A stretch of DNA of 64,000 nucleotides from Clostridia bacterium (GCA_036677445.1 JAVBWI010000004.1:342786-406785), one strand, 5' to 3'; positions 33,248-62,013 are shown, counted from the first letter of the stretch. Made by a program: numbers and translations. The notes: generated by a model from the sequence alone, not told the origin.

Positions 33248-33505
33248 ATGACACAACGCTTTGAGGTCAAGGGTACCTGCGGGCTGCACGCACGCCCTGC
33301 GCTCCAATTTGTAGAGCTTGCGAAGCGCTTCGAAAGCAATATAACCATCGACAATTCCGGAAAACCCATCGATGCGAAAAGCCTGCTGGCGGTACTGTCC
33401 GCAGGCATCAGCGGCGGCACCGTCATTTCGATTACCGTAGAAGGCAGCGACGAAGCGGCCGCGATGAAAGCACTGGGGGAATATTTGAGTGTCCCTTTGC
33501 AGTGA
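33248..33505 (+). CDS. ptsH: Phosphocarrier protein HPr
   Basis: 85 aa with the His15 motif GLHARPA and the Ser46 context DAKSLLAVLSAG. Confidence 0.9.
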   Translation: MTQRFEVKGTCGLHARPALQFVELAKRFESNITIDNSGKPIDAKSLLAVLSAGISGGTVISITVEGSDEAAAMKALGEYLSVPLQ

Positions 33506-33548
33506 AACAACAGGCAATCCACATCACACACAAGGCAGGAGATCATAC

Positions 33549-46481: not shown

Positions 46482-47313
46482 AAATATGTTAAATGGATAT
46501 CTGATGATCATCGGGGGCGCCGAAGATAAGCAGGGCGAACGTTCGATTTTAAGCCATGCGGCGGATATGGTGGCGCGCGATGAAATACTCACCGTGGTTA
46601 CGACTGCCACAAAATACCCCGAAGAGGTCGGAAACGAATATAAGGATGTTTTTTACAGGCTCGGCGTGGATAACGTGGATATCCTCAATATAGACTCACG
46701 CGATGACGCCAATAATGCGGACGTTTGCGAGATCATCCGCAAATCCAAGTGCATCTTTTTTACCGGCGGCGACCAGCTGCGTATCACCAGTATATTAGGC
46801 GGTACGAAGGTGAATAATGAACTCCAGAATCTATATAAAGAAGGCGGCGTCATTATGGGTACCAGCGCAGGCGCATCGGCAATGAGTTCAACAATGATCG
46901 TCCAGGGCAACGACAATGAGCCCGCACGCAAATGCACGCTGAAAATGGCGCCTGGGCTTGGTTTGATCAGCAACTGCATCATCGACCAGCATTTTGACCA
47001 GCGGGGAAGATTCGGACGGCTCCTTTGCGGTATAGCCGAAAACCCGGATGTACTGGGCATAGGCATCGATGAGAATACCGCGATCAAAGTGTTTCCGGAT
47101 ACGCATTTTGAAGTGATCGGCGCAAACTCTGTCACCGTCATAGACGGAAGCACGATACAGAGTTCAAACGTTGCCGAGCTGGAGCCAAATGAACTCCTTG
47201 CGATCATTGGCGTAACGGTACATATTCTTCCCTTTGGATACGGATTCGATATGCAAAACAGAAAAGTCATCAGGCTGAAAAAAGTTTCCGGAGACCAAGA
47301 TGAAGATAATTGA
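46474..47313 (+). CDS. cphB: Cyanophycinase (intracellular type, no signal peptide)
   Basis: IIGGAEDK N-terminus and the catalytic Ser motif GTSAGA. The start overlaps the iadA stop; the alternative ATG is at 46486. Confidence 0.85.
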   Translation: MRENMLNGYLMIIGGAEDKQGERSILSHAADMVARDEILTVVTTATKYPEEVGNEYKDVFYRLGVDNVDILNIDSRDDANNADVCEIIRKSKCIFFTGGDQLRITSILGGTKVNNELQNLYKEGGVIMGTSAGASAMSSTMIVQGNDNEPARKCTLKMAPGLGLISNCIIDQHFDQRGRFGRLLCGIAENPDVLGIGIDENTAIKVFPDTHFEVIGANSVTVIDGSTIQSSNVAELEPNELLAIIGVTVHILPFGYGFDMQNRKVIRLKKVSGDQDEDN

Positions 47314-49888
47314 CGTTTCGATTTTCAAAGGAAGAAATATATACAGCCATTATCCGGTAATCAAGATGATTCTCGATGCTGAAAAGCTCAGCATGACTCC
47401 CACCAAGCAGATCAAGGGATTCAACGAGTGGGTTCTTCAGGAATTTCCGGGCTTAAAAACCAACCACTGCGGTCTCGGGTATGAAGGCGGCTTTTTAGAA
47501 AAGCTCGAAGCCGGAACCTACCTCGCGCATGTCATAGAGCATGTGATACTCGAAATGCAGTATATGGCGGGATATAATGTGGCATTTGGCAAGACCCGCG
47601 TTTTGGACGAGCCTTCAAAATCCTATATCGTGTATGAATACATCAATGAAGTATGCGGCCTGGAATGCGGCAAGGCCGCCATACATATCATAAACTGTTT
47701 TTTAAAGAACAAAAAAGCGAATGTAAAGGACATTCTTGCTTATATTCAGCAGGTTTCAAAAGACGCCGAACTCGGGCCGAGTACCGCCGCGATCTATCAC
47801 GAAGCGCAGCGGCGCGGCATACCCGTCTGCCGAATAGGCCATGAGAGTTTAATTCAGCTTGGATACGGAAAATACCGGCGGATGCAGCAGGCAACGCTGA
47901 CGGATGCTACCTCCTGTATTGCCGTAGATATATCCTCCAATAAGCAATTTACAAAAATGCTGCTGCGTGACAATGGTATCCCCGTGCCGGACGGCAAGCT
48001 TGTATTCAGCGAGATTTCCGCTCTGCTTGCCGCAAAGCAAATCGGTACGCCGGTGGCAATCAAACCCCATAACGGCAACCAGGGCAAGGGCGTGCATCTG
48101 AATCTCAAAAGCCAGCGCGAAATCAAGGCTGCGTTTAAAGACGCATGTTCCCACAGCAATTCTGTGATTGTCGAAAAATTCGTCAGCGGCAAGGATTTTC
48201 GCGTTCTGGTGGTAGGCGACAAGGTCAGCGCTGTTTCAGAGCGCCGCCCCGCCTGTGTCACCGGCGACGGCGTGCATACCATCAGCGAGTTGGTTGACAT
48301 CATCAACCAGGATGAAAATCGCGGAGACCACCACGAAAAACCGCTGACCAAGATTAAGCTTGACACCATTGCGCTCAAGCTGCTAAAACGTGACAAGCTT
48401 ACCCCGGCCTTTGTTCCCGGCAAGGGCGAGATCGTAAAGCTTAGGGAAAACGGCAATTTGAGCACGGGCGGGACCGCGACGGACCGCACGGACGAGATAC
48501 ATCCCGAAAACGCGGAGCTGGCCGTGCGGGCGGCCTCCGTCCTTGGGATCGATATCGCGGGCATTGACTTTGTTACCGAGGATATATCCGCCCCCATCCG
48601 TGAAACAGGCGGGGTGATCGTTGAAGTCAATACCGCGCCGGGCATACGGATGCATTTGTACCCAAGCGAAGGAACGCCCAGAGACGTTGCGAAGGATATC
48701 GTGGAATATCTTTATCCCGGCAATGACGCATTAAATTTCCCTATCGTATCCGTAACGGGCACGAACGGAAAGACAACCACAACAAGGTTGATCGCGCATG
48801 CGCTCGCCTGCTATGGCAAGTCCGTAGGCATGACCAGCACATCCGGCACTTATATCAACGGAAAATGCATTCATAAGGGCGACGATACGGGTGCATTGAG
48901 CGCGAAGGCCGTGCTGGCCGATAAATCGGTCGACGCGGCGGTGCTTGAAACGGCGCGCGGCGGGCTTATCCGCGCCGGCCTGGGGTATGATCTCGCGGAT
49001 GTCGGCGTGATCACAAATATCGCGGACGATCACCTGGGGCTGAACGATATCAATACGCTGGAGGATCTGGCGTTTATCAAATCTCTGGTAGCGGAGGCCG
49101 TGAAGGACACCGGGTACGCGGTTTTAAACGCGGATGACCCGATGACCGGCTATATTCTAAAACGGGTAAAGGCAAACGTGATTCTTTTTGCAAAAGAGTA
49201 TGCAAAAGCAAGAAGCCTATACAGGGATTTTGCGCTTGTATATGTATCCGAAGGCATGATCATGATAGAACATGACAGCGTTACTACATCGATTATCCAT
49301 GTGGATCATATACCCATCACCAAGCACGGCAATATTCCATGCAACGTTGAAAACAGCCTGGCCGCGGTCGCAGCGCTGTACGCGCTTCGTATTCCTGCCG
49401 AAACCATTGCGTTGGGGCTGTCAAGCTTTGCCGATAATGCCGGACGATTTCAACTCCATCGCTTAGGCAATTGCTCCGTACTGCTTGATTATGGGCACAA
49501 CGCCCCCGGATACAAGGCGGTCATCGACGCTTTGCCTTCTTATCAGTCCAAGCGTTTAATCGGCGTCATCGGTATGCCCGGAGACAGGCAGGACTCGGCA
49601 ATGCAAGCCGTAGGCGAACTGTGCGCAAACGCATTCCATAAAATTTATATTAAGGAAGACGCCAATTTGCGCGGCAGAGAGAAGGGCGAAGTCACCGCGC
49701 TCCTATACGCCGCCTTGACAAGCCGCGGTTTCCCCAAGGAAAACATCATGGTATTGGCAGATGAGCTGGACGCATTGAAGCTGGCGGTCAGCGACGCCCA
49801 AAATGGCGATTTGATCGTTGTATTCTATGAAAAGCTGCATCCGCTCACCGAGTATATGCAGCAGTTAGCGGGACAAAACCATCCCTGA
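47300..49888 (+). CDS. cphA: Cyanophycin synthetase
   Basis: 862 aa: an N-terminal CphA domain, an ATP-grasp module, and a Mur-ligase-like module with GTNGKTTT. The start overlaps the cphB stop by 14 nt. Confidence 0.9.
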   Translation: MKIIDVSIFKGRNIYSHYPVIKMILDAEKLSMTPTKQIKGFNEWVLQEFPGLKTNHCGLGYEGGFLEKLEAGTYLAHVIEHVILEMQYMAGYNVAFGKTRVLDEPSKSYIVYEYINEVCGLECGKAAIHIINCFLKNKKANVKDILAYIQQVSKDAELGPSTAAIYHEAQRRGIPVCRIGHESLIQLGYGKYRRMQQATLTDATSCIAVDISSNKQFTKMLLRDNGIPVPDGKLVFSEISALLAAKQIGTPVAIKPHNGNQGKGVHLNLKSQREIKAAFKDACSHSNSVIVEKFVSGKDFRVLVVGDKVSAVSERRPACVTGDGVHTISELVDIINQDENRGDHHEKPLTKIKLDTIALKLLKRDKLTPAFVPGKGEIVKLRENGNLSTGGTATDRTDEIHPENAELAVRAASVLGIDIAGIDFVTEDISAPIRETGGVIVEVNTAPGIRMHLYPSEGTPRDVAKDIVEYLYPGNDALNFPIVSVTGTNGKTTTTRLIAHALACYGKSVGMTSTSGTYINGKCIHKGDDTGALSAKAVLADKSVDAAVLETARGGLIRAGLGYDLADVGVITNIADDHLGLNDINTLEDLAFIKSLVAEAVKDTGYAVLNADDPMTGYILKRVKANVILFAKEYAKARSLYRDFALVYVSEGMIMIEHDSVTTSIIHVDHIPITKHGNIPCNVENSLAAVAALYALRIPAETIALGLSSFADNAGRFQLHRLGNCSVLLDYGHNAPGYKAVIDALPSYQSKRLIGVIGMPGDRQDSAMQAVGELCANAFHKIYIKEDANLRGREKGEVTALLYAALTSRGFPKENIMVLADELDALKLAVSDAQNGDLIVVFYEKLHPLTEYMQQLAGQNHP

Positions 49889-50007
49889 TGGAAAACCGCA
49901 TGGGTACCACACTCTCTTATCTTATCTACGTATGCGATCAGGTCGCCTACGCCATAGCCGTTGGCGGCCACCTGCCGCATGTTGCCGCCAAAACGGCAGG
50001 CCTTCAA

Positions 50008-50031
50008 AGTCCGGAGTACCCGGACTTTTTC
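50008..50031 (+). terminator. Intrinsic terminator after cphA
   Basis: AGTCCGG-agtac-CCGGACT followed by TTTTTCTTT. Confidence 0.65.
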
Positions 50032-50085
50032 TTTGCGGCTCTGAATTAGGAAAAATCGTATCCGCATTAAAATGCGAAGTACGGT

Positions 50086-52206
50086 TTATTGACCGGCCGG
50101 CATGATTCTTTGCAGTTCGCGAACGATATCTTCAATTCGATAGGGTTTTTGTACAGCGCCGCTAAAACCGTATGCATGATAATTGGACAATACGGGATTA
50201 TTGGAATAACCGCTCGCAACAATAGCAACAACATCGGGATTCATATCTTTCATGCATTTCATTGCCTCTTTACCGCCCATACCCCCCGGAATTGTGAGGT
50301 CTAATATAACGGCATCATAAGGTTTCCCCATCTTCATGGAATTTCTGTAAAGATCAAGCCCGTCAGCCCCGTCATGAACGGCATCCGCCATATAGCCATA
50401 CATTTTTAACAAATCAGCCAAGGAATCGGCTATGGATTCCTGATCCTCAATCAGTAATATCCGTCCATTACCCGGCTGAATTTCTTTTCCATTTGTTTGG
50501 ACTTCAGTTTTTTTACGAGATGCCGGAAGATAAATATGAAAAGCCGTGCCCTTTTCCTCTTCCGACTCAACCGTAATATAACCGCCATGCTTTTTTATAA
50601 TGGAATACGAAGTTGCAAGCCCAAGTCCGCTTCCTTTTTCTTTTGTGGTGAAATAGGGATCGAATATTTTGCTTAAGTTCTCGTTTGGGATTCCAATCCC
50701 CTGATCGATAACGGATAATTTTACATAACTTCCATGACTTATAGGCAGATTGTCGTTTGAGCCGGCAAAAAAATTATCAGCCGATATCCTTATAACGCCG
50801 CCGTTGGGCATAGCCTGATCAGCGTTAATAACCATATTGTTTATAACCTGGCTTATTTGCCCCTGGTCTATTTCCACAACATAGAGATCAGGGGCAAAAG
50901 AAAATTCGCACTTTACTTTGGAGCCCCGGAGGGCAAACCCGGCCGTATCCGATATCAGATCCGGCAATAAGGATGCTTTTTTTACCGGGCTTCCGCCTTT
51001 TGAAAAGGTAAGCAGTTGCCGCGTGAGCGATTCAGCGTTATGGCAGGTCTTTTCCACCATGTTCAGATATGGATAAACGCTTTCGTCGAGTTTGTATTTC
51101 TTTCTTATTAACTGCATGACGTTTAGTATCACTGTCAATTCATTATTGAAATCATGCGCAATTCCTCCGGCCAGAACTCCCAGGGATTCAAGCTTCTGCA
51201 CCTTTAATAATTCCATGTTGGCGCGTTCAAGTTCCGCGGTGCGCCTCGCAACAAGCTCCTCAAGATACTCCCCGCTTTTTTTCATTTGTTCCAGCAACAA
51301 AATATTCTCATAGGCTATCGCGGCCTGCATGCCCAATGTCATGGTTATCTCCTCATCCACATCGGAGAACCGCATACAATCCAGTTTATCCTTCAGGCAA
51401 ATCCAGCCGTAAACGCAAGTGGGAGAGGTAAACGGAACCGCCATGAGCGATTCCACTGATATGCCAGTTTCGCAGGTAAAAGAAGACGCCGACGGCCATC
51501 GGTACGGCAAGCGCCGGGTAACCACGCGATGTAGGATTTCTTCCGGGGGAAGCAAACCATCCGGACCGGAAGCAGCAGGCTCACCCTGGGCGTGGCTGAT
51601 AAAATACTCTTTTCCGCCATCCCTTTCAATCATCAGTACGGAATGCCTGCAATTGAAAAATTCGAGCAGGATTCGGGGAATACAGCACAGGAGTTTTTGC
51701 GGATCACGCTGTGCTACCATACTGTAGCTCAGATCCATCAGCACAGAAAGCTGAAGTCCTCCGATCTGCGAAAAAGACGATTCTGCTGGATTTTGACGGG
51801 GCACGTCCGTCACAGTCTGCAGATCTGTTAAGGCAGACGGAGCTCCCAGCAGCTCACTGACCGTCTTCAGAATAAACTCCGGATCGGAAGGCTTTGGAAT
51901 AACACGGCAGGTTCCATATGTTTCGTCCAAACGGATACTTTCCGGATAACGGCAGGAAGCGGTATAAAAAATGACGGGCGTCTTCTTCAGCGTCGATTCC
52001 AACCGCAGCTTGCGGACAAATTCCAGTCCGTCAATGGAAGGCAAAAGTATATCGCTTATAATAAGATCCGGCCGCTCATTGTATGCAAGCGTCAACGCCC
52101 CGGTACCCTCAACCGCCTCTAGTACATGATGTCCCGCGTAACTAAGCAGGCTAGCAAGCATTTGCCGGCTCATTGCGTGGTCTTCGACAATAAGGATAGT
52201 TGCCAT
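50086..52206 (-). CDS. Hybrid sensor histidine kinase (REC-GAF-HisKA-HATPase-REC)
   Basis: N-terminal receiver (DLIISDILLPSIDG), H-box GIAHDFNNELT, ATPase G-boxes (DQGIGIP, GSGLGLA), C-terminal receiver (AVILDLTIPGGMGG). Confidence 0.85.
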   Translation of the reverse strand: MATILIVEDHAMSRQMLASLLSYAGHHVLEAVEGTGALTLAYNERPDLIISDILLPSIDGLEFVRKLRLESTLKKTPVIFYTASCRYPESIRLDETYGTCRVIPKPSDPEFILKTVSELLGAPSALTDLQTVTDVPRQNPAESSFSQIGGLQLSVLMDLSYSMVAQRDPQKLLCCIPRILLEFFNCRHSVLMIERDGGKEYFISHAQGEPAASGPDGLLPPEEILHRVVTRRLPYRWPSASSFTCETGISVESLMAVPFTSPTCVYGWICLKDKLDCMRFSDVDEEITMTLGMQAAIAYENILLLEQMKKSGEYLEELVARRTAELERANMELLKVQKLESLGVLAGGIAHDFNNELTVILNVMQLIRKKYKLDESVYPYLNMVEKTCHNAESLTRQLLTFSKGGSPVKKASLLPDLISDTAGFALRGSKVKCEFSFAPDLYVVEIDQGQISQVINNMVINADQAMPNGGVIRISADNFFAGSNDNLPISHGSYVKLSVIDQGIGIPNENLSKIFDPYFTTKEKGSGLGLATSYSIIKKHGGYITVESEEEKGTAFHIYLPASRKKTEVQTNGKEIQPGNGRILLIEDQESIADSLADLLKMYGYMADAVHDGADGLDLYRNSMKMGKPYDAVILDLTIPGGMGGKEAMKCMKDMNPDVVAIVASGYSNNPVLSNYHAYGFSGAVQKPYRIEDIVRELQRIMPAGQ

Positions 52207-52212
52207 TGCATC

Positions 52213-52596
52213 CTACTCTTTTCTTCTGTTTGTTTGAATAAACGATTCAATCTGCCTGACGAATACTTCGGGTATAATCGGCTTGCTGATGTAATTATCA
52301 AATCCTGCGGCAAGTACCTTTTCCCTGTCTCCTACCATTGCGAGAGCGGTAACGGCAATAAGCGGGATATTTTTGAGTTGAGGATCATTTTTTATATAAC
52401 GCGCCACCCCGTAGCCATCCACCCTGGGAAGATGTATATCGCAAATGATCAGATCGGCCCTTTCCTGATGCGCCAGCCGTATTCCCTCTTCCCCATCCGC
52501 CGCCATAAGGACTGTATAGTTGAAAACCTGCAGCAGATAGGTAATGAGCTCAAGGTTGATGGAGTTATCCTCTATAACCAATATTCGTTCATGCAA
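52213..52596 (-). CDS. Single-domain response regulator (receiver only)
   Basis: 127 aa; [31 protein letters not shown]. All conserved receiver residues are present. Confidence 0.9.
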
Positions 52597-54229
52597 TATT
52601 TGTCAGCTCCTTATCTTTTCCCAGTACCAGCTGAAAGACGCTACCTTTGCCGAACTCGCTTTGAAATTCAATATGCCCGCCAAGCAATTCCGCCAGTTTT
52701 TTGCTTAGATGAAGGCCTAATCCCGTACCTTCATGCCGTCGGGCGCTGCTTGAATCCACTTGCGTAAAAGCCTGAAAAAGCTTGTCCTGATCCTCGGGTT
52801 TAATGCCTATTCCGGTATCCGATACGCTGAATTGCACCTGTGCCAGGCTATCGTCACACCGTAACTCTAACCGGACTTCTCCCTTTTCGGTAAACTTGAT
52901 CGCATTGTTGGCGAGATTGATCAGGATCTGGCTTACAGCCCGGCGGTCTGTATGCAGGATGATATCCTCATCCGGCATATTGCAGATTAATTTGAGGTAT
53001 TTATCATCCGCAATCGGACGAAGCGTATCGGCAATATCCTTTAGAACGCTTTTGCAGGATACCGGCTCCGGGTTTACCTCAACCTTGCCGGATTCTATCT
53101 TGGAAAGATCCAGAAGGTCGTTGATAAGCAAAAGCAAATGCTTGGCGCTTGCAGATATATTCTGGAGCTGCTTTTCCTGTTCGGCGTTAAGCGGTCCGGG
53201 CAGTTTCATCAAAAGCGTTCCGGTAAAGCCGATAATGGCATTGAGCGGCGTGCGCAATTCATGACTCATATTGGCAAGGAATCTGTCTTTGGCCAGCAAT
53301 GCATTTTCCAACTCGACATTTTTTTCCTGCAGCCTGTCCTCAGCCAGTTTCCGCTGCTCAATCTCCTGTTTCAGCTGTTTATTGGTTGCCTCCAAATCGG
53401 CCGTTCGTTCCGCCACCCTCTTCTCCATCTCGCCGTATGCCCTGTGCAGTTTTACCTCCGCCATATCACGCTCCGTCACATCGCGGAAAACTAAAATTAC
53501 GCCTATAATTTTTCCCCGGTCATCCTGAATAGGCGCGGCGCTGTCATCGATAGGAATTTCCCTTCCGTTCTTGGCAAGAAGCAATGTATGGTTGGCCAGG
53601 CCGACAACCGCCCCTTCCTGCATGACTCTTTCCGCAGGATTTTCAACGGTCAGGCGCGTATTCTTGTTTATAATCCTGAATACATCCGTCAGCTTCTCAT
53701 GCTGTGCCTCCTCTATCTTCCATCCCGTCAGTTCCTCTGCAACCATATTCATGAAGGTAACCCGGCCTTTGTCATCCGTAGCGATGACGGCGTCCCCGAT
53801 ACTTCTGAGTGTTGTCGAAAACCATTCTTCACTTTCTTTCAGCTTTTTTTCCATCTTGTGCTTATACAATGCCATGTCGATGGAGATATCCAGTTCGCGC
53901 TCCTTAAAGGGCTTGACGATATATCCATAAGGATCGGTTATTTTGGCGCGCTGCACCGTATCTTCATCCGCATAAGCGGTCAGATAAATCACAGGGATTC
54001 CATAGCTGGACATGATTTGCTTTGCAGCCCAAACCCCGTCGACCTCTCCGTGAAGCATGATGTCCATAAGCACCAGGTCAAAACTTATCTCCTCCGTCAG
54101 CTTGATCGCTTCTTCCCCGGATAATGCGATAACAGGGCAGGAATATCCTAAATTCATCAGCCTATGCTGAATATCCAGCGCCTCAATGCCTTCATCCTCA
54201 ACAATTAATATCTTGGCGTCAGTCATCAT
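52589..54229 (-). CDS. Hybrid sensor histidine kinase (REC-PAS-HisKA-HATPase)
   Basis: Receiver ([14 protein letters not shown]), a PAS region, H-box [11 protein letters not shown], ATPase motifs (DTGIGI, GTGLGL). Confidence 0.85.
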
Positions 54230-54240
54230 ACCGTCTCCTT

Positions 54241-57200
54241 TTATTTCATCGCTTCAAATAAAATGGTAAATCGGGTTCCGTTGTTTCTATCGATATAAAT
54301 TTCACCCTTGAGCTGCCTTACCAATATATTGACTATTTTAAGCCCCAGCGAATTGCTGTTTTGTATGATAAAATCGTCCGGCAGACCTATGCCGTTGTCA
54401 CCCACAACCAGCTTATACCTGTTTCCCGCGCCATGACGCAGATCGATTTGTATTTCTTTCTTCCGGTCAGGGCATCCGCCGGAAGCGGAAAAAGCGTATT
54501 TTAAGGCATTTGAAACAAGCTCGTTCATAATCAGAGCGCAGGGGATTATCGTATCGATGTTTAGCGTAATATCGTCTACGTATATTTTAGGGCTTATACT
54601 CCTCTCGCTAATACCATAAGACAAAAACAGATTGGCGATTAGGTTTTGAATATATTCAGGCAGATTGATCCTCGCCAGCGATTCGGACTGATACAGTTTT
54701 TCATGAATAAGCGCCATCGTGAAAATCCGGTTCTTGCTCTCCTTTAGTAACCCGATAACCAGTTCATCCGTAGTATAAAGCGATTGAAGGTTCAGCATGC
54801 TGTGAATGATCTGGAGATTGTTTTTTACGCGGTGATGGATTTCCTTAAGAAGCACCTCTTTTTCATGCAGGGCTGAACGCAAATGCGCCTCGCTGTCGTA
54901 TAGCTCCTCATTGGCAGCCGCAAGCTCGGCCGTCCGTTTCATCACGCGCTGTTCGAGTTCCCGGTTGAGCTTTTGTATTTCCGCCTCGGCCTTGTTGCGG
55001 TCGGTAATATCGATGCCCATCTCCAGAATAAGATTGGAGCCATCCGCGTCTACAAACGGGAAATCAAAAACGTCATAATCGCGGCCGTCCGGCCCGGTCC
55101 ATTTCCAGCTGCAGGGGGATTTTGTTTCCAAAACGCCGTAGGTTTGGCAATTCTCACATGGCTTATCGTGACCAAACAGGAATTCGAAGCAGCGCTTCCC
55201 ATGCGCTTCGCCAAAGCGCTCCCGAAATACGCGGTTGGCAAAGGGCGCGTGATAATCCGGGGTTAAGAGAACCACATATACCGGGAGTATCTCTAAAATT
55301 TCATTGAACCGCCGCTGTTCGACTATTACCTGCTCCTCGGCCTGCTTGCGGCGGGTAATATCTTCCTCCAATAGCTGATTGGTTCTGGCCAGTTCCGCAG
55401 TTCTTTCCAGAACCCGCATCTCCAGCTCCGCCTTTGCGCCCCGCAGCGCCTCCTCCGCCCGTTTCATCTCGTCCACCAACCGGGAATTTTCAAGAGAAAT
55501 TGCCGCCTGTGATGTCAGCAATTCCGTTAATTGCGTCTTTTCCGATGTAAAAACGGCGTCCGACAGACGGTTTTCCAGGTATAACACGCCTATCTTCTTG
55601 GACTGTTTGATAACCGGCAGGCAAAGAACAGATTTTAGCCGCATATGCCGGACCTCCGGATTATCCTTAAATATTCCCTCCTGCGCGGCGTTATTCAGTA
55701 CCAGCCGCTCTCCCGTCCTGTAAACGTAACGGGCAATGGCTTTGCAGATATCCCGCGTATCTTCCAGTTTTCTGTTGACCGTCCGTATGATTTGCTTTTT
55801 TACGACATGGCTTTCCGCATAGACAAACAGGCCATCGTTTTCCTGTATCAACAAATATCCGTGCTGTGCGCCGGAACTCTCGATCACCACATTCATAATC
55901 TTTTTTAACAGAGTATCCTGCTCTATTTCGGCGGCAATCGCAATAGACGATTTCATCAGATAATCAATATCCAGCGGAGGAAGGATATTGGGTGCGGCCG
56001 TCTCCAATTCCAATTGCGGAACGACCGCTTTCTCTTCCTTGAAATATTCAGGATATTTATTGATAAGATTTGATTCCTTGCGTTCCGCCCCACACGCCCG
56101 GTATAACCTGGCTGCCTCGGCAAAGTAAACCCTCTGCGTGCATTGGCCGGACTTCAACAGCAGTTCTCCAAGGCACTCATTGAGATGCCCTTCCAGAAAC
56201 GTATATTTTTGTTCATGTGCGATATTGATCGCGTCAAGATATAAGCTTCTGGCCTCTTTGAAGCTGCCAGCCACCCTTTCCCGTTCTGCGTATAAAAAGG
56301 CAAGGTAAGGTTTCAATAAGGGGCCTAAAGCCGCCCAGGTTTCAATTTTTTCAACAACAGGCCGGATTTCTGCTATAAGCTCATCAAAAGCACCGCCGGA
56401 TTCCTGTTCGAACAATTTCAGCTTGTTTAAAACCAAAAAGACATGCCATTGCCTTTTTAGAACGTTATCGGTAAGGCCGGATAAATATCGCTTTACCTCC
56501 TCGAGATACCGCCCCGCTTCTTCATATTCTCCAAAATAGTAATGGGATATCGCCATATGGACGCAGTAGCTGCCGGCCGAAGCAATATGATTATCCTTTT
56601 CCCACAAACGAAGCTTTTCATCCATTGATACATGGACGCAGTTCTTTTTCATGTGCCCGACCCAGCCGGCTTGCATCGCCTCGGCAAGTCTGGCTGAAAA
56701 TGCTAAATTGAATCGGTTCGAAAATTGAAGGCACTCGTTTGCATAGTCTTCAATTGCGGACATATCGGCGCCCTGCACCTGGAGATTCCACATTAACGGT
56801 CCGTAAGAAAGCCCCGCATTATACAGGTCGCCGCAGTTTTTCCCGCATTGGATCGACTTTAAGCAATACTCCACAATCTGCTTCGGATGGCTTCTTGAGT
56901 GCATATTGCACCATACGATACCGTTCATGCCCCTGGTTGCGCCAAAAGTATTCGGATATTTTGCGGAGAGATCGCGCGCAAGGTCCTCAAACCTGAATGC
57001 CTGTTCAAAGTCCCCCTGCTCTCCCAATAGAAGCCCCATGATGCTGAAGGAATATATGACCGATTCATCCATACCACCCGAGAGGCAATGCTGGGTAGAC
57101 TGCGCAGCGGAAAGATAAAGCTGCGGTACAAGGCCGGACATATACAGGTCGGGTATCAGCTCACTGTAGAAGGCAAGCTCAATTTTGCTCTTCCGTTCAT

Positions 57201-59856
57201 TTGTAAAAGGCATATTCAGGATCGCCTCATAAATATCGAAATCCTTTGCGAATATGTCGGATATCAGTCTCTCCCTTTTTCTTTGCGCTTTAACTGGGTC
57301 TTCCGGGATAGTCTTTCCAAAAATGCTGAGTCCTTTGTTGGCAGTCTCGATTGCTTTTATAAAATTGCCGATGGAAGACAACGAGGTCGTTTGTTCCGCC
57401 AGGCATTCTCCCTTGTCCAGGTCGGTTATTGCTTGATCCAACAACAGATTGAGCAACCTTTCGGAATTTGTGTAGTTCCCGCACATGAGCTCGGTTTTTG
57501 CCGCTTTTTTCAATATACTGAAGGTGCGCTGATAATGGGTTCCATTCCAGCAATCGTCCGGCAACAGCGATCTGCTGATTTGGAAATACTCATTTGCCGC
57601 TTCTGTAGCAAGCGTGTCAAGCGCCTTGTTGCCGGCATAGTAGTTTAAGTCCGACAGAAAATAGGCTTGCTGCCCGATTACTTTTTCTTCTTTCCCCATA
57701 TTAAGGTGTGAAACGATCGCAAAGAGGTTTTCTGCTTTTTCCAGCTCCATATCCGCCGGAATCGTTGTGAGGAGATAGTTTCCTACTTTTCGGTGTATCT
57801 GCCGCCGGTCCTCTGCCGGAATTAAGGATAATACCGCTTCCTGCACTCGATCATGTATGAATTGCAGCTGGCCCTTGTTCTCTATCAGCAGTCCCTGGCT
57901 TAGAACTGGTTTTAGCAGCTCATACAGCTCAAATAGAGACATTCCATTGATAGCGGAAATATCATTGGGTGAAAACGAATTCCCCATACACGCGCAATAT
58001 TTGAGCAAACCTGTCAAGCCCGGTGCGAGCTTCTGAATTTTAGCGCTAAAAAGCGCAACTACCGTAGTCGGCATATGCGATTGATTAACTTTGCCAACGT
58101 CCCAGCACCATTGCCTTTTTTCATCGAAAAAAAGCAGGCCTTCGTTGTAGAGATACGAGAGGCTTTCACTGACAAAAAGCGGGTTGCCTTCGCTTAGGGT
58201 GCTGATAAAATCCGACAATGTTTTGGTTTTTGAGCGGGGTGAATCGAGGATATAGGAAACCATCTCATGACAATGATGCGGTTTCAAAGATTCTAACCTG
58301 ATTTCCGTTAAAGGCCAGCCGCTGATCTTTGCATTTGTGATAAGCTTTGAGAGTGGGTGACTTGAATCAACCTCGTTATGACGGTATGCTCCCAGCAGGA
58401 AAAAGTAGGGATGATCCCTGTAATTGGCCATTATATTTGATAAAAAGTCAAAGGAGGCCATGTCGCACCATTGAAGATCGTCTATAAACAACGTCAATGG
58501 GTTTTCTTCACTGGCCAGACAAGTCAGAAACCGGTCAAAAAGATCATGATACCGGTTCAATGCCTCGACCGGCGGAAGCGCTTTTACATCGGGCTGCGGG
58601 CCAATCAGTATTTCCAATTCCGGGATAGCGTCAGTCAATACCCTGGCATTATTTCCTACTGATTGTAAGATTCTTTTTTTCCAGTTTGCAGCCCGCTCAT
58701 TGCTTTCGGTCAGAAAAGTTCTGATCAAGTTTTTAAGAGCCTGTATCAAGGAGCTATAGGGAATATTTTTTTGATAGATATCGAACTTTCCAGATGTAAA
58801 ATAGCCCTTATGCTTGACAATAGGATTTTGCAACTCCTGTATCAGGCGGGTCTTTCCTATGCCGGACAACCCGGATATCAGCAGCGAACGGAATTCACCC
58901 TTGACCACCTGCTCGTATTCCTGAAGTATAGTCCCGGCCTCTTTATCCCGGCCTACCATTTTGGAAACAAAGGGTATTTTTTGAATGCTTACGCATTTTT
59001 CTAAAAGAAATTCGCGTATTGCCCCGGTTTTTGCGTACTCAGCCTGGCATCGCATTAGGTCGGTTAAGAGCCCGCCGGCGCTTTGATAGCGTTTTTCCGG
59101 CTGCTTTATGATTAGTTTCGCAATGATTTTGCTTAATGCAACGGGGATATCCGGGTTGTGTATATGAACCTGAGGGGCTTCTTTTGCAAGATGTGAATGA
59201 ATCAATTCCAGCGGATCATCCGAATAAAACGGCAATTCGCCTGTCAATATCTCATAAAACACAATGCCCAGTGAATATAGGTCGGAAGAGAAAACAACCC
59301 GATGATTGATGCGTCCCGTTTGCTCCGGGGATGTATATGATAACGTATTTCTGATAAAGGAACGATCATAGATAAAATGGCTGACATCCCTGACATCCAC
59401 GGTGCTGATAAAATCTATTAATCTGATATCCGATATATTTGAACCGACAAGGATATTGTGCGGTTTAATTCCGCCATGGATGATTCCGGCTTCATGAATT
59501 TTCTCTAAAGCCTGTGTGAGTCTGTAAGCTAAAATAAAAAAATCGCTTAACGGTAATTGAGGATGCTCCTTTATAAATACATCAAGCGAAATCCCATTAA
59601 AATACTCCTGCGTTATAAAGCACATGCCATCTTTTACTTCAAAGGAATCCGGTGTAATCAGCAGTGGGTTTTTTATAACCTTAAGGTGCTCAATCTTCTG
59701 ATCAAACTGGGCTTTTTTATATCCGGAAAAATTTATTGATTTTAATACTTTAAGAACAAGTGTCTGATTCGGATTTGCTTGATGATATACCTTGAAGACG
59801 GCAGTGTGTGGAACCTCGGCTACCTTTTCTACTATTTCATAATTTAATATTTTCAT
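54241..59856 (-). CDS. 1871-aa multidomain signalling protein: degenerate Ser/Thr-kinase-like domain, AAA (AAA_16/STAND-like) ATPase, TPR-like region, GAF, PAS, HisKA_2-type histidine kinase
   Basis: Kinase-like N-terminus ([30 protein letters not shown]); Walker A GLSGIGKT and Walker [11 protein letters not shown]; GAF ([20 protein letters not shown]); PAS with CENCQ; H-box [13 protein letters not shown]; ATPase [20 protein letters not shown]. Confidence 0.85.
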
Positions 59857-59947: not shown

Positions 59948-60742
59948 CTATGCGACACCTTCCGGAAAACTGGCCATTTCGCGGCCATGTTTCATTAACA
60001 GCCTGTCCGCCACAAGCGCTATGAATTCTCCATTGGTGGGTTTATCGTACTTTGAATAGATTTTGCAGTCAAAGAATTGGTTAATATTTTCAATCTTGCC
60101 GCGTTCCCATGCAACCTCTATTGCATGGCGGATGCCTCGCTCTACTTTACTTGACGTTGTTGAGAACTGTTTCGCGATACAGGGGTATAGCTCTTTCGTC
60201 AGGTGGTTAATGAGTTCGGGGTTATTGAATACCATTCGAATTCCTTCCCGGAGATAATGATACCCTTTAATATGTGCCGGGATTCCGGTAGCGAGAAAAA
60301 TGAGCGTGATTTCTTCGCTAAGCGTTTTCGGCGGCTGAGGCGAGGCAGACTTACTTGTCTCCGGCTGCGCCGTTGTAAGCATATCCAGCATCCTCTTGTA
60401 CAGCGTTTCCGGCTCTATAGGTTTCGCCATGTAATATCTGGCGCCTAGTGTGAACGCGTAACGGATCATACTCTCGTTGCGGATAGCGGAGACCACGATC
60501 ACCGCCGGCTGTTCGCCCCCAATCCTTCTGAGATTCTCAAGTATGCCCAGCCCATCCAGCTTCGGCAAAATTAGACCCATCAGCAGGGCGTCGTACCGCT
60601 TTAAACGCATTTTCTCAAGGGCTTGACGTCCATCCGTAGCAATATCCACCAACTGTACTTTTTCCTGCGCAGAAAGGTACTTGTATACGAAATCACGGTA
60701 CTGCGGATCGTCATCCACGAGCAGAACAGCATACTTAGACAT
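59948..60742 (-). CDS. Spo0A-family transcription factor with an atypical receiver (Gly at the phospho-acceptor position)
   Basis: The C-terminal domain is near-canonical Spo0A (GIPAHIKGYHYLREGI, SKVERGIRHAIEVAW, KPTNGEFIALVADRL). The receiver aligns gap-free with B. subtilis Spo0A but reads LLMGLILPKLDG where Spo0A has LVLDIIMPHLDG. The start is taken at the ATG at 60742, after AAGGAG. Confidence 0.85.
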   Translation of the reverse strand: MSKYAVLLVDDDPQYRDFVYKYLSAQEKVQLVDIATDGRQALEKMRLKRYDALLMGLILPKLDGLGILENLRRIGGEQPAVIVVSAIRNESMIRYAFTLGARYYMAKPIEPETLYKRMLDMLTTAQPETSKSASPQPPKTLSEEITLIFLATGIPAHIKGYHYLREGIRMVFNNPELINHLTKELYPCIAKQFSTTSSKVERGIRHAIEVAWERGKIENINQFFDCKIYSKYDKPTNGEFIALVADRLLMKHGREMASFPEGVA

Positions 60743-61071: not shown

Positions 61072-61584
61072 ATGAAAGAAAAAACCTGCTGTTTTGCCGC
61101 ACAAAACCGGCGGATTATATCCGACGAAGATAATCCCGGTTGCATTAGGCTTATTCTTAAAATTACTCTGGAGATCGAGTTAATGATAAAAAAAGGATGC
61201 AATACATTCATAACCGGAATGGATTGGAGGTCGGAGCTTTGGTTCGCAGAAGCAGTACTTGATTTGAAACGTGCTTATCCACAAAAAAGTATTAATCTTA
61301 TCGTCGTTCAGTATGCGGGGCAAGCCTCACGATGGAACAAATATTATCTGGATCGTTATAAACGCGTACTCTTGCACGCCGATGATAAGGTAACATTAGG
61401 GGCAGACTATTATAACGGTTATATGCAGCAGTTAAATCAATATATGATAAGGCATTCGGCTCACATGATAGCTTTATTTGCCGGCAGGAAGGAACCTGTT
61501 ATAGCTTCCGATCCGGATACAGTGATTATAAACCCAAACGACTTTTTCGTGAAAAAGCCGCGCATTTTTTCAATCGTAAAATAG
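61072..61584 (+). CDS. DUF1273 / SLOG-family protein (YpsA-like)
   Basis: 170 aa; KTCCF..., CNTFITGMDWRSELWFAEAVLDLKRAYP and LNQYMIRHSAHMIALF resemble the YpsA/DUF1273 family. The usual TGHR-type N-terminal motif reads FAAQNRR here. Confidence 0.6.
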   Translation: MKEKTCCFAAQNRRIISDEDNPGCIRLILKITLEIELMIKKGCNTFITGMDWRSELWFAEAVLDLKRAYPQKSINLIVVQYAGQASRWNKYYLDRYKRVLLHADDKVTLGADYYNGYMQQLNQYMIRHSAHMIALFAGRKEPVIASDPDTVIINPNDFFVKKPRIFSIVK

Positions 61585-61629: not shown

Positions 61630-62013
61630 GTGTCACATCGAATTTTGATTGCCGATGATAACAAGGACTTTACCAGTATTTTTAAAGACTACATTTCCTT
61701 ATATAATGATATCGAACTTGTTGGAATAGCGGAAAATGGCTGCAAGACATATGAAATGCTGTTGCAGGAAAAGCCTGACCTGTTAATTTTGGATCTTGTT
61801 ATGCCTGATATGGATGGAATCGAAGTCCTTCGCCGGATTCGTGACATGGACGGCGTCAAACCCGCAATATTCGTGATTTCCGCGCTTAGCAACGATGCTA
61901 TCACCCGTGAGGCTCTGACGCTGGGAGCTTGTGCTTATTTCATTAAGCCAATCAACCTTGAATCTATCGTCTCTCGAATACGCGCAGTTATGCAAACCAC
62001 GTCACAAGTTTGA
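61630..62013 (+). CDS. Stand-alone Spo0A-type receiver domain protein (no DNA-binding domain)
   Basis: GTG start. The 127-aa product aligns gap-free with the Spo0A receiver (ILIADDNKDF, ELVGIAENG, PDLLILDLVMPDMDGIEVL, ISALS, YFIKP) and stops right after the receiver. Confidence 0.8.
   Translation: MSHRILIADDNKDFTSIFKDYISLYNDIELVGIAENGCKTYEMLLQEKPDLLILDLVMPDMDGIEVLRRIRDMDGVKPAIFVISALSNDAITREALTLGACAYFIKPINLESIVSRIRAVMQTTSQV

What the first reader, a model, noticed from the sequence alone, without database searches (positions are those of the whole stretch)
54241..59856. The N-terminal protein-kinase domain of the 1871-aa sensor looks catalytically dead (HRD is HGG, no glycine-rich loop, DFG is DFI)
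The first 270 aa or so have a clear Hanks-kinase layout: LVLKVLK for [14 protein letters not shown] for the APE region. However, the catalytic loop reads [12 protein letters not shown]. The codons CAT GGC GGA at 59478-59470 on the minus strand were verified in the sequence. Both the Arg and the catalytic Asp of HRD are therefore Gly. The glycine-rich loop position reads [12 protein letters not shown], with no Gly, and the Mg-binding motif is DFI. The downstream AAA Walker A/B motifs, the GAF and PAS domains and the HisKA_2 transmitter look intact. A pseudokinase fused to a STAND-like ATPase and a functional histidine kinase suggests the kinase fold has become a scaffold or ligand sensor. Kinase-AAA-GAF-HK multi-kinases are known, for example in cyanobacteria. 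I am not aware of this degenerate variant or of a link to Spo0A-like regulators.
Basis: partly seen in the sequence, partly recalled or inferred. Interest (0 to 1): 0.6.

Follow-up and report, generated by a model that had tools for sequence, protein, structure and literature searches.

The report
Conserved dead-kinase domain on sensor kinase
The first 290 residues of this 1871-residue bacterial sensor protein are a protein-kinase fold that has lost its catalytic aspartate; the loss is shared by a large, strongly conserved family found in many anaerobic bacteria and archaea, so the domain is a working pseudokinase of a kind catalogued in 2025, not a one-off defect.

Summary
The ORF at 54241..59856(-) encodes 1871 aa. 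Codons CAT GGC GGA at 59478-59470 give [12 protein letters not shown]. Alignment to M. tuberculosis PknB fixes the register: HGG = HRD and DFI = DFG. The beta1-beta2 turn (VAEVPH) has no glycine.

HGG is not private to this strain. About 110 of 116 close homologues carry it, in Chloroflexi, Desulfobacterota, Nitrospirota, Firmicutes, methanogens and Bathyarchaeia. The beta3 Lys, alphaC Glu, catalytic-loop Asn and DFG Asp stay near-invariant. dN/dS against a 97% twin is 0.12.

The domain heads a conserved core of about 1480 aa: pseudokinase, STAND NTPase, helical array, GAF. The histidine-kinase output varies, and a receiver or hybrid-kinase gene usually follows.

Related proteins that keep H[KR]D and DFG, including cyanobacterial HstK-type dual kinases, also lack the Gly loop. 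The Asp-less clade is a derived branch.

Pseudokinases fused to COG3899 ATPases with GAF/PAS domains are already described as the CP1 family (2025). I call this a new member of a known kind, with moderate interest.

The Spo0A adjacency is private to this species, and that Spo0A-like protein lacks its phospho-acceptor Asp (G56).

No biochemistry exists. Nucleotide binding without phosphotransfer is an inference.

The parts
54241..59856 (-). Whole gene: 1871-aa cytoplasmic sensor, in the order pseudokinase, STAND NTPase, helical array, GAF, PAS-like, HisKA_2, HATPase_c
   Evidence: ORF list and translation. Pfam domains. No TM segment, max KD19 1.44.
58987..59856 (-). Pseudokinase domain, aa 1-290 (Hanks fold)
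   Evidence: Pkinase 90.9 bits. AF2 pLDDT 86.5, pTM 0.88. Foldseek best match is PknB, E 8.5e-19, TM 0.73-0.85.
59806..59823 (-). Position of the Gly-rich loop, aa 12-17 VAEVPH, with no glycine
   Evidence: Translation. Beta1-beta2 turn in the model. The family consensus [AG]E[SGA]PQ[AS] is not GxGxxG. The same loss is seen in H[KR]D/DFG relatives.
59749..59751 (-). K36, beta3 (VAIK) lysine, retained
   Evidence: K in 111/116 homologues.
59689..59691 (-). E56, alphaC glutamate, retained
   Evidence: E in 113/116. Aligns with the PknB alphaC Glu.
59449..59484 (-). Catalytic loop aa 125-136 [15 protein letters not shown] (59470-59478) replaces HRD. N134 (59455-59457) is retained.
   Evidence: DNA read. 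PknB alignment. H127 116/116, G128 113/116, G129 112/116. N134 invariant.
59407..59415 (-). DFI, aa 148-150, in place of DFG. The metal-binding Asp is kept and the Gly is lost.
   Evidence: D 113/116, F 114/116, I 102/116. PknB alignment.
59323..59406 (-). Activation segment through the APE-equivalent SPE, aa 151-178, the best-conserved part of the domain
   Evidence: Residues 151-200 are 84% identical to the query over 115 homologues. [12 protein letters not shown] is near-invariant. Predicted short helices at 155-161 and 165-170.
57757..58971 (-). STAND-type NTPase (AAA_16) with helical/winged-helix part, aa 296-700. Walker A at 58849-58872, Walker B at 58468-58491.
   Evidence: AAA_16 116 bits. 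Motifs located and conserved. Foldseek best match 6mfv STAND-TPR, then Cdc6/ORC, CED-4 and NLRs.
55987..57756 (-). All-helical TPR-like array, aa 701-1290. Residues 901-1050 are the most conserved stretch of the protein.
   Evidence: AF2 model is all-helical with pLDDT mostly above 85. 85-89% identity over 115 homologues. No Pfam domain except a weak TPR_12 hit. No PDB sequence relative.
55492..55917 (-). GAF domain, aa 1314-1455, the end of the conserved core
   Evidence: Pfam GAF, E 1.3e-13. Present in all complete family members.
54922..55359 (-). PAS-like insert, aa 1500-1645, with conserved C-x10-C-x2-C. Found only in some family members.
   Evidence: phmmer finds the same module in 26 other members. 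C1556, C1567 and C1570 are kept in 26/27.
54256..54843 (-). Histidine-kinase transmitter: HisKA_2 (aa 1672-1747, H-box HHRVKNN) plus HATPase_c (aa 1775-1867, N-box and G1)
   Evidence: Pfam 93.7 and 43.2 bits. Motifs.
50086..54229 (-). Three downstream two-component genes on the same strand: REC-PAS-HisKA-HATPase (52589..54229), REC (52213..52596), REC-GAF-HisKA-HATPase-REC (50086..52206)
   Evidence: Pfam. The same order is seen in the twin contig. A REC/HK gene follows within 500 bp in 42 of 51 complete family loci.
59948..60742 (-). Upstream Spo0A-family gene (264 aa from the ATG), 91 nt from the sensor gene. The receiver acceptor Asp is Gly (G56, 60575-60577).
   Evidence: TIGR02875 255 bits against a cutoff of 200. 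Alignment with CheY, Spo0A and other receivers. The twin carries the same GGT codon. The adjacency is not seen in relatives.

Best explanation
The N-terminal 290 residues are a genuine, selectively maintained pseudokinase. It is a PknB-like Hanks fold in which the catalytic base and its arginine (HRD) are Gly-Gly and the DFG glycine is Ile. The beta3 Lys, alphaC Glu, catalytic-loop Asn, DFG Asp, the spine residues His127 and Phe149, and the activation/P+1 segment are all kept.

The domain is the first module of a conserved cytoplasmic sensor core of about 1480 residues: pseudokinase, STAND NTPase (AAA_16), TPR-like helical array, GAF. This core is coupled to interchangeable histidine-kinase transmitters, here HisKA_2 after a Cys-rich PAS-like insert. 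The transmitter normally feeds a receiver or hybrid receiver-kinase encoded immediately downstream.

The most likely mechanism is inferred, not shown. The pseudokinase does not phosphorylate anything. It still binds a nucleotide, probably with a metal. Its conformation or dimerisation acts as an allosteric input to the STAND ATPase switch. That switch, together with the GAF and PAS modules, sets the autophosphorylation of the C-terminal histidine kinase and so the flux into the downstream multi-step phosphorelay.

In evolutionary terms the protein belongs to the Gly-loop-less, AAA_16-linked kinase family that includes cyanobacterial HstK-type dual kinases. The Asp-less HGG clade is a derived branch that has spread widely among anaerobic Bacteria and Archaea.
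For: Shown:
- The register against PknB is fixed.
- The kinase fold is predicted with pLDDT 86.5, and the best Foldseek match is PknB.
- HGG is present in about 110 of 116-120 homologues at 57-97% identity.
- K36 is kept in 111/116, E56 in 113/116 and D148 in 113/116; N134 is invariant.
- dN/dS is 0.12 in the pseudokinase domain against 0.116 for the whole gene, measured against a 97% twin.
- 231 relatives were found among GTDB species representatives. The top 80 span at least a dozen bacterial and archaeal phyla at 53-69% identity in this domain.
- The KIN-AAA-MID-GAF core is constant. Among 51 complete genes the output is 23 HisKA_2, 23 HisKA and 5 none.
- 42 of those 51 are followed within 500 bp by a REC and/or HK gene.
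- The STAND assignment rests on Pfam AAA_16, conserved Walker A/B motifs and the 6mfv Foldseek match.
- Relatives at 35-42% identity also lack the Gly loop but carry H[KR]D plus DFG/DFS. An NJ tree places the Asp-less sequences as one subclade.
- The HKD+DFS+Gln representatives are from Nostoc and Coleofasciculaceae and match the published cbSTKIII signature (PMC2176072).

From the literature:
- CP1 pseudokinases are all linked to COG3899, often with GAF/PAS (PMC12599244; bioRxiv 10.1101/2025.01.12.632604).
- Asp166 is the catalytic base but is not needed for ATP binding. Pseudokinases with altered HRD motifs, such as MLKL (HGK) and JAK JH2, bind nucleotide (PMC4718504).
Against: There are no biochemical data for any member of this clade; none was found in three literature searches.

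Retention of K36/E56/N134/D148 could be purely structural. The Gly-rich loop that normally clamps the phosphates is absent and carries a near-invariant Glu (E14), which could oppose triphosphate binding.

I could not inspect model coordinates, so pocket openness and the K36-E56 salt bridge are untested.

The coupling from pseudokinase to STAND to histidine kinase is inferred only from the fixed domain order.

Some pseudokinases that lack the catalytic Asp retain weak activity (JAK2 JH2, PMC4718504), so 'no phosphotransfer' is not certain.
Confidence: 0.68

Rival explanations
1. The domain is still a phosphotransferase that works without the canonical base. This could be slow autophosphorylation, as in JAK2 JH2, possibly with another residue (invariant D154 in the activation segment, or H133 before N134) or the substrate itself taking the proton.
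For: The ATP- and metal-binding residues K36, E56, N134 and D148 are kept at 96-100%. The activation segment, rich in Ser/Thr/Tyr (SYTS), is near-invariant. D154 is invariant. JAK2 JH2 is a pseudokinase with low autophosphorylation activity (PMC4718504).
Against: Both the Arg and the Asp of HRD are Gly across the clade. There is no Gly-rich loop. The DFG Gly is replaced by a branched hydrophobic residue. H133 is not invariant (H 102, N 8, R 4 of 116). The [10 protein letters not shown] segment is equally conserved in H[KR]D-bearing relatives, so it is not a compensating feature of this clade.
Confidence: 0.15
2. The kinase fold has been repurposed for different chemistry, such as AMPylation as in SelO or glutamylation as in SidJ, or it binds a non-nucleotide ligand.
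For: SelO-family proteins have HG at the HRD position (Hgvmntdn, Table 1 of PMC12599244). The pocket residues here are strongly conserved. The Gly-Gly pair opens extra space at the catalytic loop.
Against: SelO carries an Asp just before the catalytic-loop Asn. The equivalent position here is a non-invariant His. Sequence and fold are closest to PknB-type kinases, not to SelO or SidJ. Nothing in the neighbourhood suggests a modification substrate.
Confidence: 0.07
3. The domain binds nothing and serves only as a rigid dimerisation or docking scaffold for the STAND module or for partner proteins.
For: The Gly-rich loop is lost and carries a conserved Glu. The DFG Gly is replaced, which may lock one conformation. 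Many bacterial pseudokinases, including part of CP1, are thought not to bind ATP (PMC12599244). The activation segment is predicted to be ordered and helical.
Against: K36, E56, N134 and D148 are kept far better than in the families described as non-binding. In those families all three catalytic motifs diverge (bioRxiv 10.1101/2025.01.12.632604).
Confidence: 0.1

Closest known systems
CP1 family of bacterial Ser/Thr (pseudo)kinases (O'Boyle, Kannan et al. 2025; bioRxiv 10.1101/2025.01.12.632604; review PMC12599244)
   Same: Cytosolic kinase or pseudokinase domain with no transmembrane region. It is physically linked to a COG3899/AAA_16 predicted ATPase and often to GAF/FhlA or PAS domains. A large fraction of members lack the HRD Asp (37%). 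Function is unknown.
   Different: CP1 is described as mainly cyanobacterial and proteobacterial, with heterogeneous motif decay: 34% lack the Lys and 17% lack the DFG Asp. The clade here is uniform (HGG + DF[ILV], with K/E/N/D kept) and very strongly conserved. It occurs in Firmicutes, Chloroflexi, Nitrospirota, Desulfobacterota and many Archaea, which that atlas did not cover. Formal membership by the atlas's constraint patterns could not be tested.
Cyanobacterial dual protein kinases, HstK / cbSTKIII (Phalip et al. 2001; PMC2176072; PMC1262709)
   Same: N-terminal Hanks-type kinase domain, GAF in the middle and a C-terminal histidine kinase in one polypeptide. The Gly-rich loop is missing, the LxYxSPEQTGR segment is shared, and the kinase domains are 37-42% identical.
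   Different: cbSTKIII keeps HKD (the catalytic Asp) and has DFS and Gln at the alphaC position. The protein here has HGG, DFI and Glu. It is a separate, Asp-less branch in the NJ tree.
Eukaryotic pseudokinase domains that regulate a catalytic domain in the same polypeptide (JAK JH2, receptor guanylate cyclases, RNase L, MLKL; PMC4718504)
   Same: Same logic of the proposed mechanism: a kinase fold without full catalytic motifs that can still bind nucleotide and acts allosterically. The HRD position is altered, as in HGK of human MLKL.
   Different: No specific homology beyond the kinase superfamily. The outputs differ (tyrosine kinase, cyclase, RNase, pore). Nucleotide binding is untested here.
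STAND NTPases with TPR sensor arms (crystal structure 6mfv; MalT/AfsR/PknK-type architecture)
   Same: AAA_16 P-loop NTPase followed by helical/winged-helix domains and a long TPR-like superhelix. 6mfv is the best Foldseek match at E 3e-11.
   Different: Only 13% identity and TM 0.35-0.48. No PDB relative at the sequence level. The protein here has a pseudokinase in front and GAF plus a histidine kinase behind, instead of a DNA-binding output.
Fungal group X hybrid histidine kinases (S/TKr-GAF-HK-REC; PMC6324907, PMC4965123)
   Same: An N-terminal 'Ser/Thr-kinase-related' domain plus GAF in front of a histidine kinase. Intracellular sensors, implicated in oxidant adaptation.
   Different: The fungal proteins carry a fused receiver. 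Homology of their kinase-related domain to this clade was not tested here.

Membership tests
Hanks-type protein kinase fold (Pfam PF00069) | Significant match to the Pkinase profile and a bilobal fold | tested here: met
   90.9 bits against a gathering score of 31.7. AF2 pLDDT 86.5. Foldseek best match is PknB at TM 0.73-0.85.
Hanks-type protein kinase, catalytically competent | Catalytic Asp of HRD present | tested here: not met
   HGG aligns with the HRD of PknB. G129 is present in 112/116 homologues.
Hanks-type protein kinase, catalytically competent | GxGxxG glycine-rich loop | tested here: not met
   VAEVPH lies at the beta1-beta2 turn. The loop is also absent in H[KR]D-bearing relatives.
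Pseudokinase (sequence definition: lacks at least one of VAIK-Lys, HRD-Asp, DFG-Asp) | At least one of the three residues missing | tested here: met
   The HRD Asp is missing. K36 and D148 are present.
Pseudokinase (functional definition) | No phosphotransfer activity | not testable with these tools
   Needs an enzyme assay.
CP1 bacterial STK family | Kinase domain linked to a COG3899-type ATPase | tested here: met
   AAA_16 at residues 300-480 directly after the kinase domain. STAND fold.
CP1 bacterial STK family | No transmembrane region; GAF/FhlA or PAS frequently present | tested here: met
   Max KD19 is 1.44. GAF at 1314-1455 and a PAS-like insert.
CP1 bacterial STK family | Family-specific residue constraint pattern of the atlas | not testable with these tools
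   The atlas profiles and data files are not held.
cbSTKIII / HstK dual kinases | STK domain, GAF and a C-terminal His kinase in one protein | tested here: met
   Pfam architecture.
cbSTKIII / HstK dual kinases | Signature DFS, Gln in subdomain III, catalytic Asp kept (PMC2176072) | tested here: not met
   DFI, E56 and HGG here. The signature is seen instead in the Nostoc and Coleofasciculaceae representatives P0217 and P0237.
STAND NTPase | P-loop NTPase with Walker A/B followed by helical and repeat sensor domains | tested here: met
   GLSGIGKT and LFIDDLQW are conserved. All-helical array. 6mfv is the best match.
HisKA_2 histidine kinase | H-box His, N-box and G-boxes | tested here: met
   HisKA_2 93.7 bits, HATPase_c 43.2 bits. 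HHRVKNN, NELVSNA and DNGIG located. Activity not testable.
Spo0A (neighbouring gene) | NCBIfam TIGR02875 score above cutoff | tested here: met
   255 bits against 200.
Spo0A (neighbouring gene) | Phospho-acceptor Asp in the receiver | tested here: not met
   Gly at the column of CheY D57 / Spo0A D56. The twin has the same residue.
Fungal group X histidine kinases | S/TKr + GAF + HK + fused REC; homology of the kinase-related domain | not tested
   No fungal sequence was compared. No fused REC here.

The most novel reading that the evidence does not exclude
The HGG pseudokinase, STAND NTPase, helical array and GAF core is one ultra-conserved sensor. It is about 65-75% identical over roughly 1480 residues between Firmicutes, Chloroflexi, Desulfobacterota, Nitrospirota and methanogenic and other Archaea, and appears to move horizontally. 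In this reading the dead kinase pocket has become a dedicated small-molecule (nucleotide or other metabolite) receptor that gates STAND switching. It would be a prokaryotic counterpart of pseudokinase-controlled switches such as RNase L, JAK JH2 or receptor guanylate cyclases, sensing a signal common to anaerobic life. Its many invariant cysteines and the C-x10-C-x2-C PAS insert would point to redox or metal input.
Probability: 0.25. Interest if true: 0.65.

Novelty: new member of a known kind. Interest (0 to 1): 0.38.

Why it matters
Bacterial pseudokinases are almost unstudied experimentally. This clade is a good entry point: it is large (thousands of database proteins), unusually well conserved for a signalling protein, soluble, and keeps every nucleotide-binding residue except the catalytic base. 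A clean test is therefore possible of whether a prokaryotic pseudokinase acts as a nucleotide-dependent allosteric switch on a STAND ATPase and a histidine kinase. It also shows that the 'dual kinase' label (Ser/Thr kinase plus His kinase), which public sources attach to some of these homologues, is misleading for this branch, because only the histidine kinase half can be expected to transfer phosphate. For this genome the practical message is that the locus is a multi-step His-Asp relay with a non-catalytic kinase-fold input. It is not a Ser/Thr kinase pathway, and the neighbouring Spo0A-like protein cannot be its ordinary phospho-acceptor.

Tried and rejected
1. Register error: rejected by the PknB alignment and the fold model.

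2. Strain-private mutation or sequencing error: rejected. HGG is clade-wide and present in the 97% twin.

3. Decaying relic: rejected by near-invariance of many residues and dN/dS 0.12.

4. Gly-loop loss as part of the 'death' of the domain: rejected. The loss is family-wide and includes H[KR]D/DFG members.

5. Family members that naturally lack the pseudokinase (P0058, P0061, P0114): these are N-terminally truncated gene calls that start inside the kinase or NTPase domain, so they are not evidence of dispensability.

6. A conserved Spo0A link: rejected from both sides.

7. Defence-system kinase readings (MADS6 and BREX PglW hits in NCBIfam): these are partial kinase-domain matches far below the cutoffs (93.8 bits against 460; 30.6 against 990). 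The neighbourhood holds only two-component genes.

8. The TOMM kinase/cyclase hit (141 bits against 705): it reflects the shared AAA_16 region only.

9. Searches that gave nothing:
- The literature search for pseudokinase + histidine kinase + AAA + GAF returned one irrelevant paper.
- 'signal transduction multi-kinase' returned no characterisation.
- HstK paper PMC1222267 is not held.
- The atlas supplements are not held.
- The afdb50 fold library is unavailable.
- There is no PDB sequence relative of residues 296-1300.

10. The promoter/terminator scan gave counts no higher than shuffles, so operon structure is only suggested by the short same-strand gaps.

Full report
**1. The observation**

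The window holds an uninterrupted ORF at 54241..59856 on the minus strand, 1871 aa with an ATG start. Read on the minus strand, the DNA at 59484-59449 is atc atc CAT GGC GGA att aaa ccg cac aat atc ctt.

Pfam places a protein-kinase domain at residues 19-258 (90.9 bits, cutoff 31.7). It also finds AAA_16 at 300-480, GAF at 1314-1455, HisKA_2 at 1672-1747 and HATPase_c at 1775-1867.

A phmmer search of solved structures puts M. tuberculosis PknB first (E 6e-28). The printed alignment lays '[16 protein letters not shown]' over 'hqngiihrdvkpanil', 'lidfi' over 'vvdfg', and 'tlsytspeq' over 'taqylspeq'. The register is therefore right: HGG is the HRD position, DFI is DFG and SPE is APE.

An AlphaFold2 model of residues 1-300, built on 57 sequences, has pLDDT 86.5 and pTM 0.88. 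Strands 6-15 and 18-25 flank a turn at VAEVPH, the place of the Gly-rich loop, and this turn contains no glycine. Foldseek against the PDB returns PknB, S. aureus Stk1 and PknA as best matches (E down to 8.5e-19, TM 0.73-0.85).

**2. Private or clade-wide?**

The full-length protein has 7807 database relatives at E <= 1e-10 among the 8000 candidates scored. The best 120 are 57-97% identical. Of these, about 110 read HGG[IVLMF]KPxN at the catalytic loop.

In an alignment of 116 N-terminal domains the counts are as follows:

| Position | Residue kept |
|---|---|
| H127 | 116/116 |
| G128 | 113/116 |
| G129 | 112/116 |
| K131, P132 | 116/116 |
| D148 | 113/116 |
| F149 | 114/116 |
| I150 | 102/116 |
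| K36 (beta3 Lys) | 111/116 |
| E56 (alphaC Glu) | 113/116 |

N134 is invariant. The Gly-loop position reads [AG]-E-[SGA]-P-Q-[AS], with E14 in 109/116.

The activation/P+1 segment [12 protein letters not shown] is essentially invariant. Residues 151-200 are the best-conserved part of the domain, at 84% identity to the query over 115 homologues.

Against a 97%-identical twin found in a Logan assembly (L081), the pseudokinase domain shows 11 synonymous and 5 non-synonymous differences. This gives dN/dS 0.12, the same as the whole gene at 0.116. The counts are small but agree with the deep conservation.

The domain is therefore maintained by selection. It is not an accident of this strain and not a decaying remnant.

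**3. Distribution and architecture**

A scan of one genome per GTDB species found 231 relatives of the 300-residue domain. The best 80 are 53-69% identical. They come from:
- Bacteria: Desulfobacterota, Geobacteraceae, Nitrospirota, Chloroflexi, Peptococcaceae and other Firmicutes, Methylomirabilis, Acidobacteriota, Omnitrophota, Bacteroidales, Methylomonas and Methylobacter.
- Archaea: Methanosarcina, Methanobacterium, Methanoculleus, Methanoregulaceae, Methanomassiliicoccus and Bathyarchaeia.

Hits on very long contigs, such as Methanoperedens at 3.3 Mb and a complete Methylomonas chromosome, argue against bin contamination.

Dissecting the 80 loci with phmmer shows a constant core: kinase domain, AAA_16 region, middle region, GAF, about 1480 residues in all. 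The C-terminus varies. Among 51 complete genes with at least 1.5 kb of downstream sequence, 23 end in a HisKA_2-type kinase, 23 in a HisKA-type kinase and 5 have no transmitter. Of these 51, 42 are followed within 500 bp on the same strand by a two-component gene: 20 receiver-kinase hybrids, 16 receivers and 6 kinases.

The window follows this rule. The sensor is followed by REC-PAS-HisKA-HATPase (52589..54229), REC (52213..52596) and REC-GAF-HisKA-HATPase-REC (50086..52206), all on the minus strand with short gaps or overlaps.

The AlphaFold2 model of residues 296-1300 (pLDDT 83.3) is a P-loop alpha/beta domain followed by an all-helical array. Its best PDB match is the STAND protein with TPR repeats, 6mfv (E 3e-11). 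Cdc6/ORC, CED-4 and plant NLR resistosomes follow. No PDB relative exists at the sequence level.

Walker A (GLSGIGKT, 329-336) and Walker B (LFIDDLQW, 456-463) are conserved. The protein has no hydrophobic segment compatible with a membrane helix.

**4. Where the Asp-less clade sits**

An exhaustive phmmer search of 1.84 billion cluster representatives with the 300-residue domain returned 4577 proteins at E <= 1e-30. I aligned the 93 representatives whose match lies at the N-terminus. Three layers appear:
- Ordinary kinases with GxGxxG, HRD and DFG, about 30% identical.
- Long AAA_16-linked proteins, 35-42% identical, that already lack the Gly loop (E[ST]xxSx[VI]YR). These mostly keep H[KR]D and DFG or DFS, and share LxYxSPEQTGR[MI].
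- Asp-less sequences. One group is the present one (HGG + DF[ILV]). A more heterogeneous group has HGG/HKG/HRG/HSG with DLV or DDV.

A neighbour-joining tree, which is rough and has no support values, puts all Gly-loop-less sequences in one clade. It places the Asp-less ones as a single subclade, sister to the H[KR]D/DFG group.

Representatives with HKD + DFS + Gln at the alphaC position are from Nostoc and Coleofasciculaceae. This matches the published signature of cyanobacterial family III 'dual protein kinases' such as HstK: Gly to Ser in DFG and Glu to Gln in subdomain III (PMC2176072).

Two conclusions follow. First, the missing Gly loop is an old family trait and not part of the loss of catalysis. 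Second, the HRD-to-HGG change is a later, fixed event in one branch.

**5. What is already known**

The 2025 atlas of bacterial Ser/Thr kinases defines a family CP1 in which 37% of members lack the HRD Asp, 34% lack the Lys and 17% lack the DFG Asp (bioRxiv 10.1101/2025.01.12.632604). The accompanying review states that all CP1 pseudokinases are linked to a COG3899 predicted ATPase. It adds that they often carry GAF/FhlA or PAS domains, have no membrane segment, and have unknown functions (PMC12599244).

'Dual' Ser/Thr-His kinases with GAF have been known in cyanobacteria since 2001 (PMC2176072, PMC1262709). Fungal group X histidine kinases have a 'Ser/Thr-kinase-related' domain plus GAF (PMC6324907).

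I found no experimental work on the HGG clade itself. The architecture and the idea of a degenerate kinase in front of a COG3899 ATPase are therefore known. Three things are not spelled out in the texts I could read: the uniform HGG/DF[ILV] branch, its retention of the nucleotide-binding residues, and its spread into Archaea. Formal CP1 membership by the atlas's residue patterns could not be tested, because the supplements are not held.

**6. Mechanism**

Shown:
- The catalytic base is absent.
- The fold, both spine anchor residues (H127, F149), the Lys-Glu pair, the metal ligands N134 and D148, the alphaF Asp (D192) and the subdomain XI Arg (R256) are conserved.
- The domain is always followed by the STAND NTPase.
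- The transmitter is intact.

Established knowledge: Asp166 is the base for phosphoryl transfer but is not required for ATP binding. Pseudokinases with altered HRD motifs, such as human MLKL (HGK) and JAK JH2, bind nucleotide and act allosterically (PMC4718504).

Inference: the domain most likely binds nucleotide without transferring phosphate, and works as a conformational or dimerisation input to the STAND switch. That switch, with the GAF and the Cys-rich PAS-like module, controls histidine-kinase autophosphorylation and the downstream multi-step relay. I give about 0.68 to the reading 'selected, non-catalytic regulatory pseudokinase of this sensor core'. The nucleotide-binding step alone I rate at roughly even odds.

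Rivals:
- Residual or non-canonical phosphotransfer (0.15).
- Pure scaffold with no ligand (0.10).
- Different chemistry or a non-nucleotide ligand (0.07).

The conserved Glu in the former Gly loop and the loss of the DFG glycine are the main reasons for caution about ATP binding.

**7. The Spo0A link**

The gene 91 nt upstream (59948..60742, 264 aa from the ATG) passes the NCBIfam Spo0A equivalog model at 255 bits against a cutoff of 200. The adjacency is not a family feature:
- No Spo0A_C domain lies within 10 kb of any of the 80 related loci.
- None lies near the close homologues P0009 and P0016.
- The nearest Spo0A relatives P0273, P0276 and P0288 are not next to such a sensor.
- Only the 97% twin shares the arrangement.

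This Spo0A-like protein also has Gly at the phospho-acceptor position (LLMGLILPKLDG against LVLDIIMPHLDG in B. subtilis Spo0A as recalled from memory, and VISDWNMPNMDG in CheY). The same GGT codon is present in the twin. Its closest relatives, at 66-69% identity, all have Asp. Among the 121 aligned proteins the column reads D 103, E 10, G 7, A 1. It therefore cannot be an ordinary phospho-acceptor of the neighbouring kinases.

**8. Verdict**

The finding is a new member, within a coherent and under-described branch, of a known kind. Interest is moderate. The value lies in offering a clean, soluble, highly conserved model for bacterial and archaeal pseudokinase function, not in a surprise.

Noticed in passing
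window 59948-60742 (-), codon 60575-60577: The Spo0A-family protein next to the sensor passes TIGR02875 at 255 bits against a cutoff of 200. It has Gly instead of the receiver's phospho-acceptor Asp (G56), so it is a pseudo-receiver. The 97% twin strain carries the same GGT codon. The closest relatives (66-69% identity) have Asp. Among the 121 aligned Spo0A-family proteins the column is D 103, E 10, G 7, A 1, so non-phosphorylatable and Glu variants recur.
   Followed up: partly
window 61630-62013 (+) and 61072-61584 (+): A stand-alone receiver whose best NCBIfam match is the receiver half of Spo0A (129.9 bits). It keeps the acceptor Asp. It sits next to a YpsA/SLOG-family gene and is divergent from the Spo0A-like gene. 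The two may be a split or paralogous Spo0A module.
   Followed up: no
window 54922-55359 (-), aa 1500-1645 of the sensor: A PAS-like insert missed by Pfam at E < 0.01. It carries three cysteines (C1556, C1567, C1570; C-x10-C-x2-C) that are kept in 26 of 27 homologous copies. This is a possible metal, Fe-S or redox site.
   Followed up: partly
window 56707-57156 (-), aa 901-1050 of the sensor: The most conserved stretch of the whole protein: 85-89% identical to the query over 115 homologues from many phyla. It has no Pfam domain and no PDB sequence relative. It contains invariant Cys924, Cys1008, Cys1042, His923 and His986 and motifs such as [20 protein letters not shown] and [20 protein letters not shown]. 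It is a likely ligand or partner site of the STAND sensor arm.
   Followed up: partly
loci L001-L080 and proteins P0012-P0120: The roughly 1480-residue core is 64-76% identical between this Firmicute protein and proteins of Chloroflexi, Desulfobacterota, Nitrospirota, Methanosarcina and Methanoperedens. The ranking of hits does not follow taxonomy, which suggests extensive horizontal transfer across the two domains. Some genomes carry several copies: L007 and L035 are from the same Chloroflexi MAG.
   Followed up: partly
loci L001, L004, L005, L006, L012, L036: In these loci, most of which carry a family member that ends after GAF with no transmitter (L012 does carry a HisKA_2 transmitter), a 1560-1930-aa histidine kinase lies upstream on the same strand. 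In L001, L004, L005, L006 and L036 one or two receiver genes follow downstream. This suggests the sensor core can also work in trans.
   Followed up: no
locus L083 (context of P0016, Desulfotomaculum sp.): In this locus the sensor is followed by REC-STAS, STAS and two HATPase_c_2 (anti-sigma-kinase-like) genes. This is a partner-switching module instead of the usual receiver-kinase hybrid.
   Followed up: no
window 45366-49888 (+): Cyanophycin synthetase (862 aa, 47300-49888) lies convergent to the signalling cluster. The twin contig has Peptidase_S51 (cyanophycinase-like) and amidohydrolase genes in the equivalent positions. A bidirectional terminator-like hairpin at 50006-50078 separates the two units.
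   Followed up: no
window 28911-30281 (-) and 35708-38443 (-): A sigma-54 gene (rpoN) and a 911-aa sigma-54 activator-type AAA+ protein lie in the same window, along with PTS enzyme I (33489-35243) and a molybdopterin xanthine-dehydrogenase-family subunit (42872-45202). This is ordinary chromosomal context.
   Followed up: no
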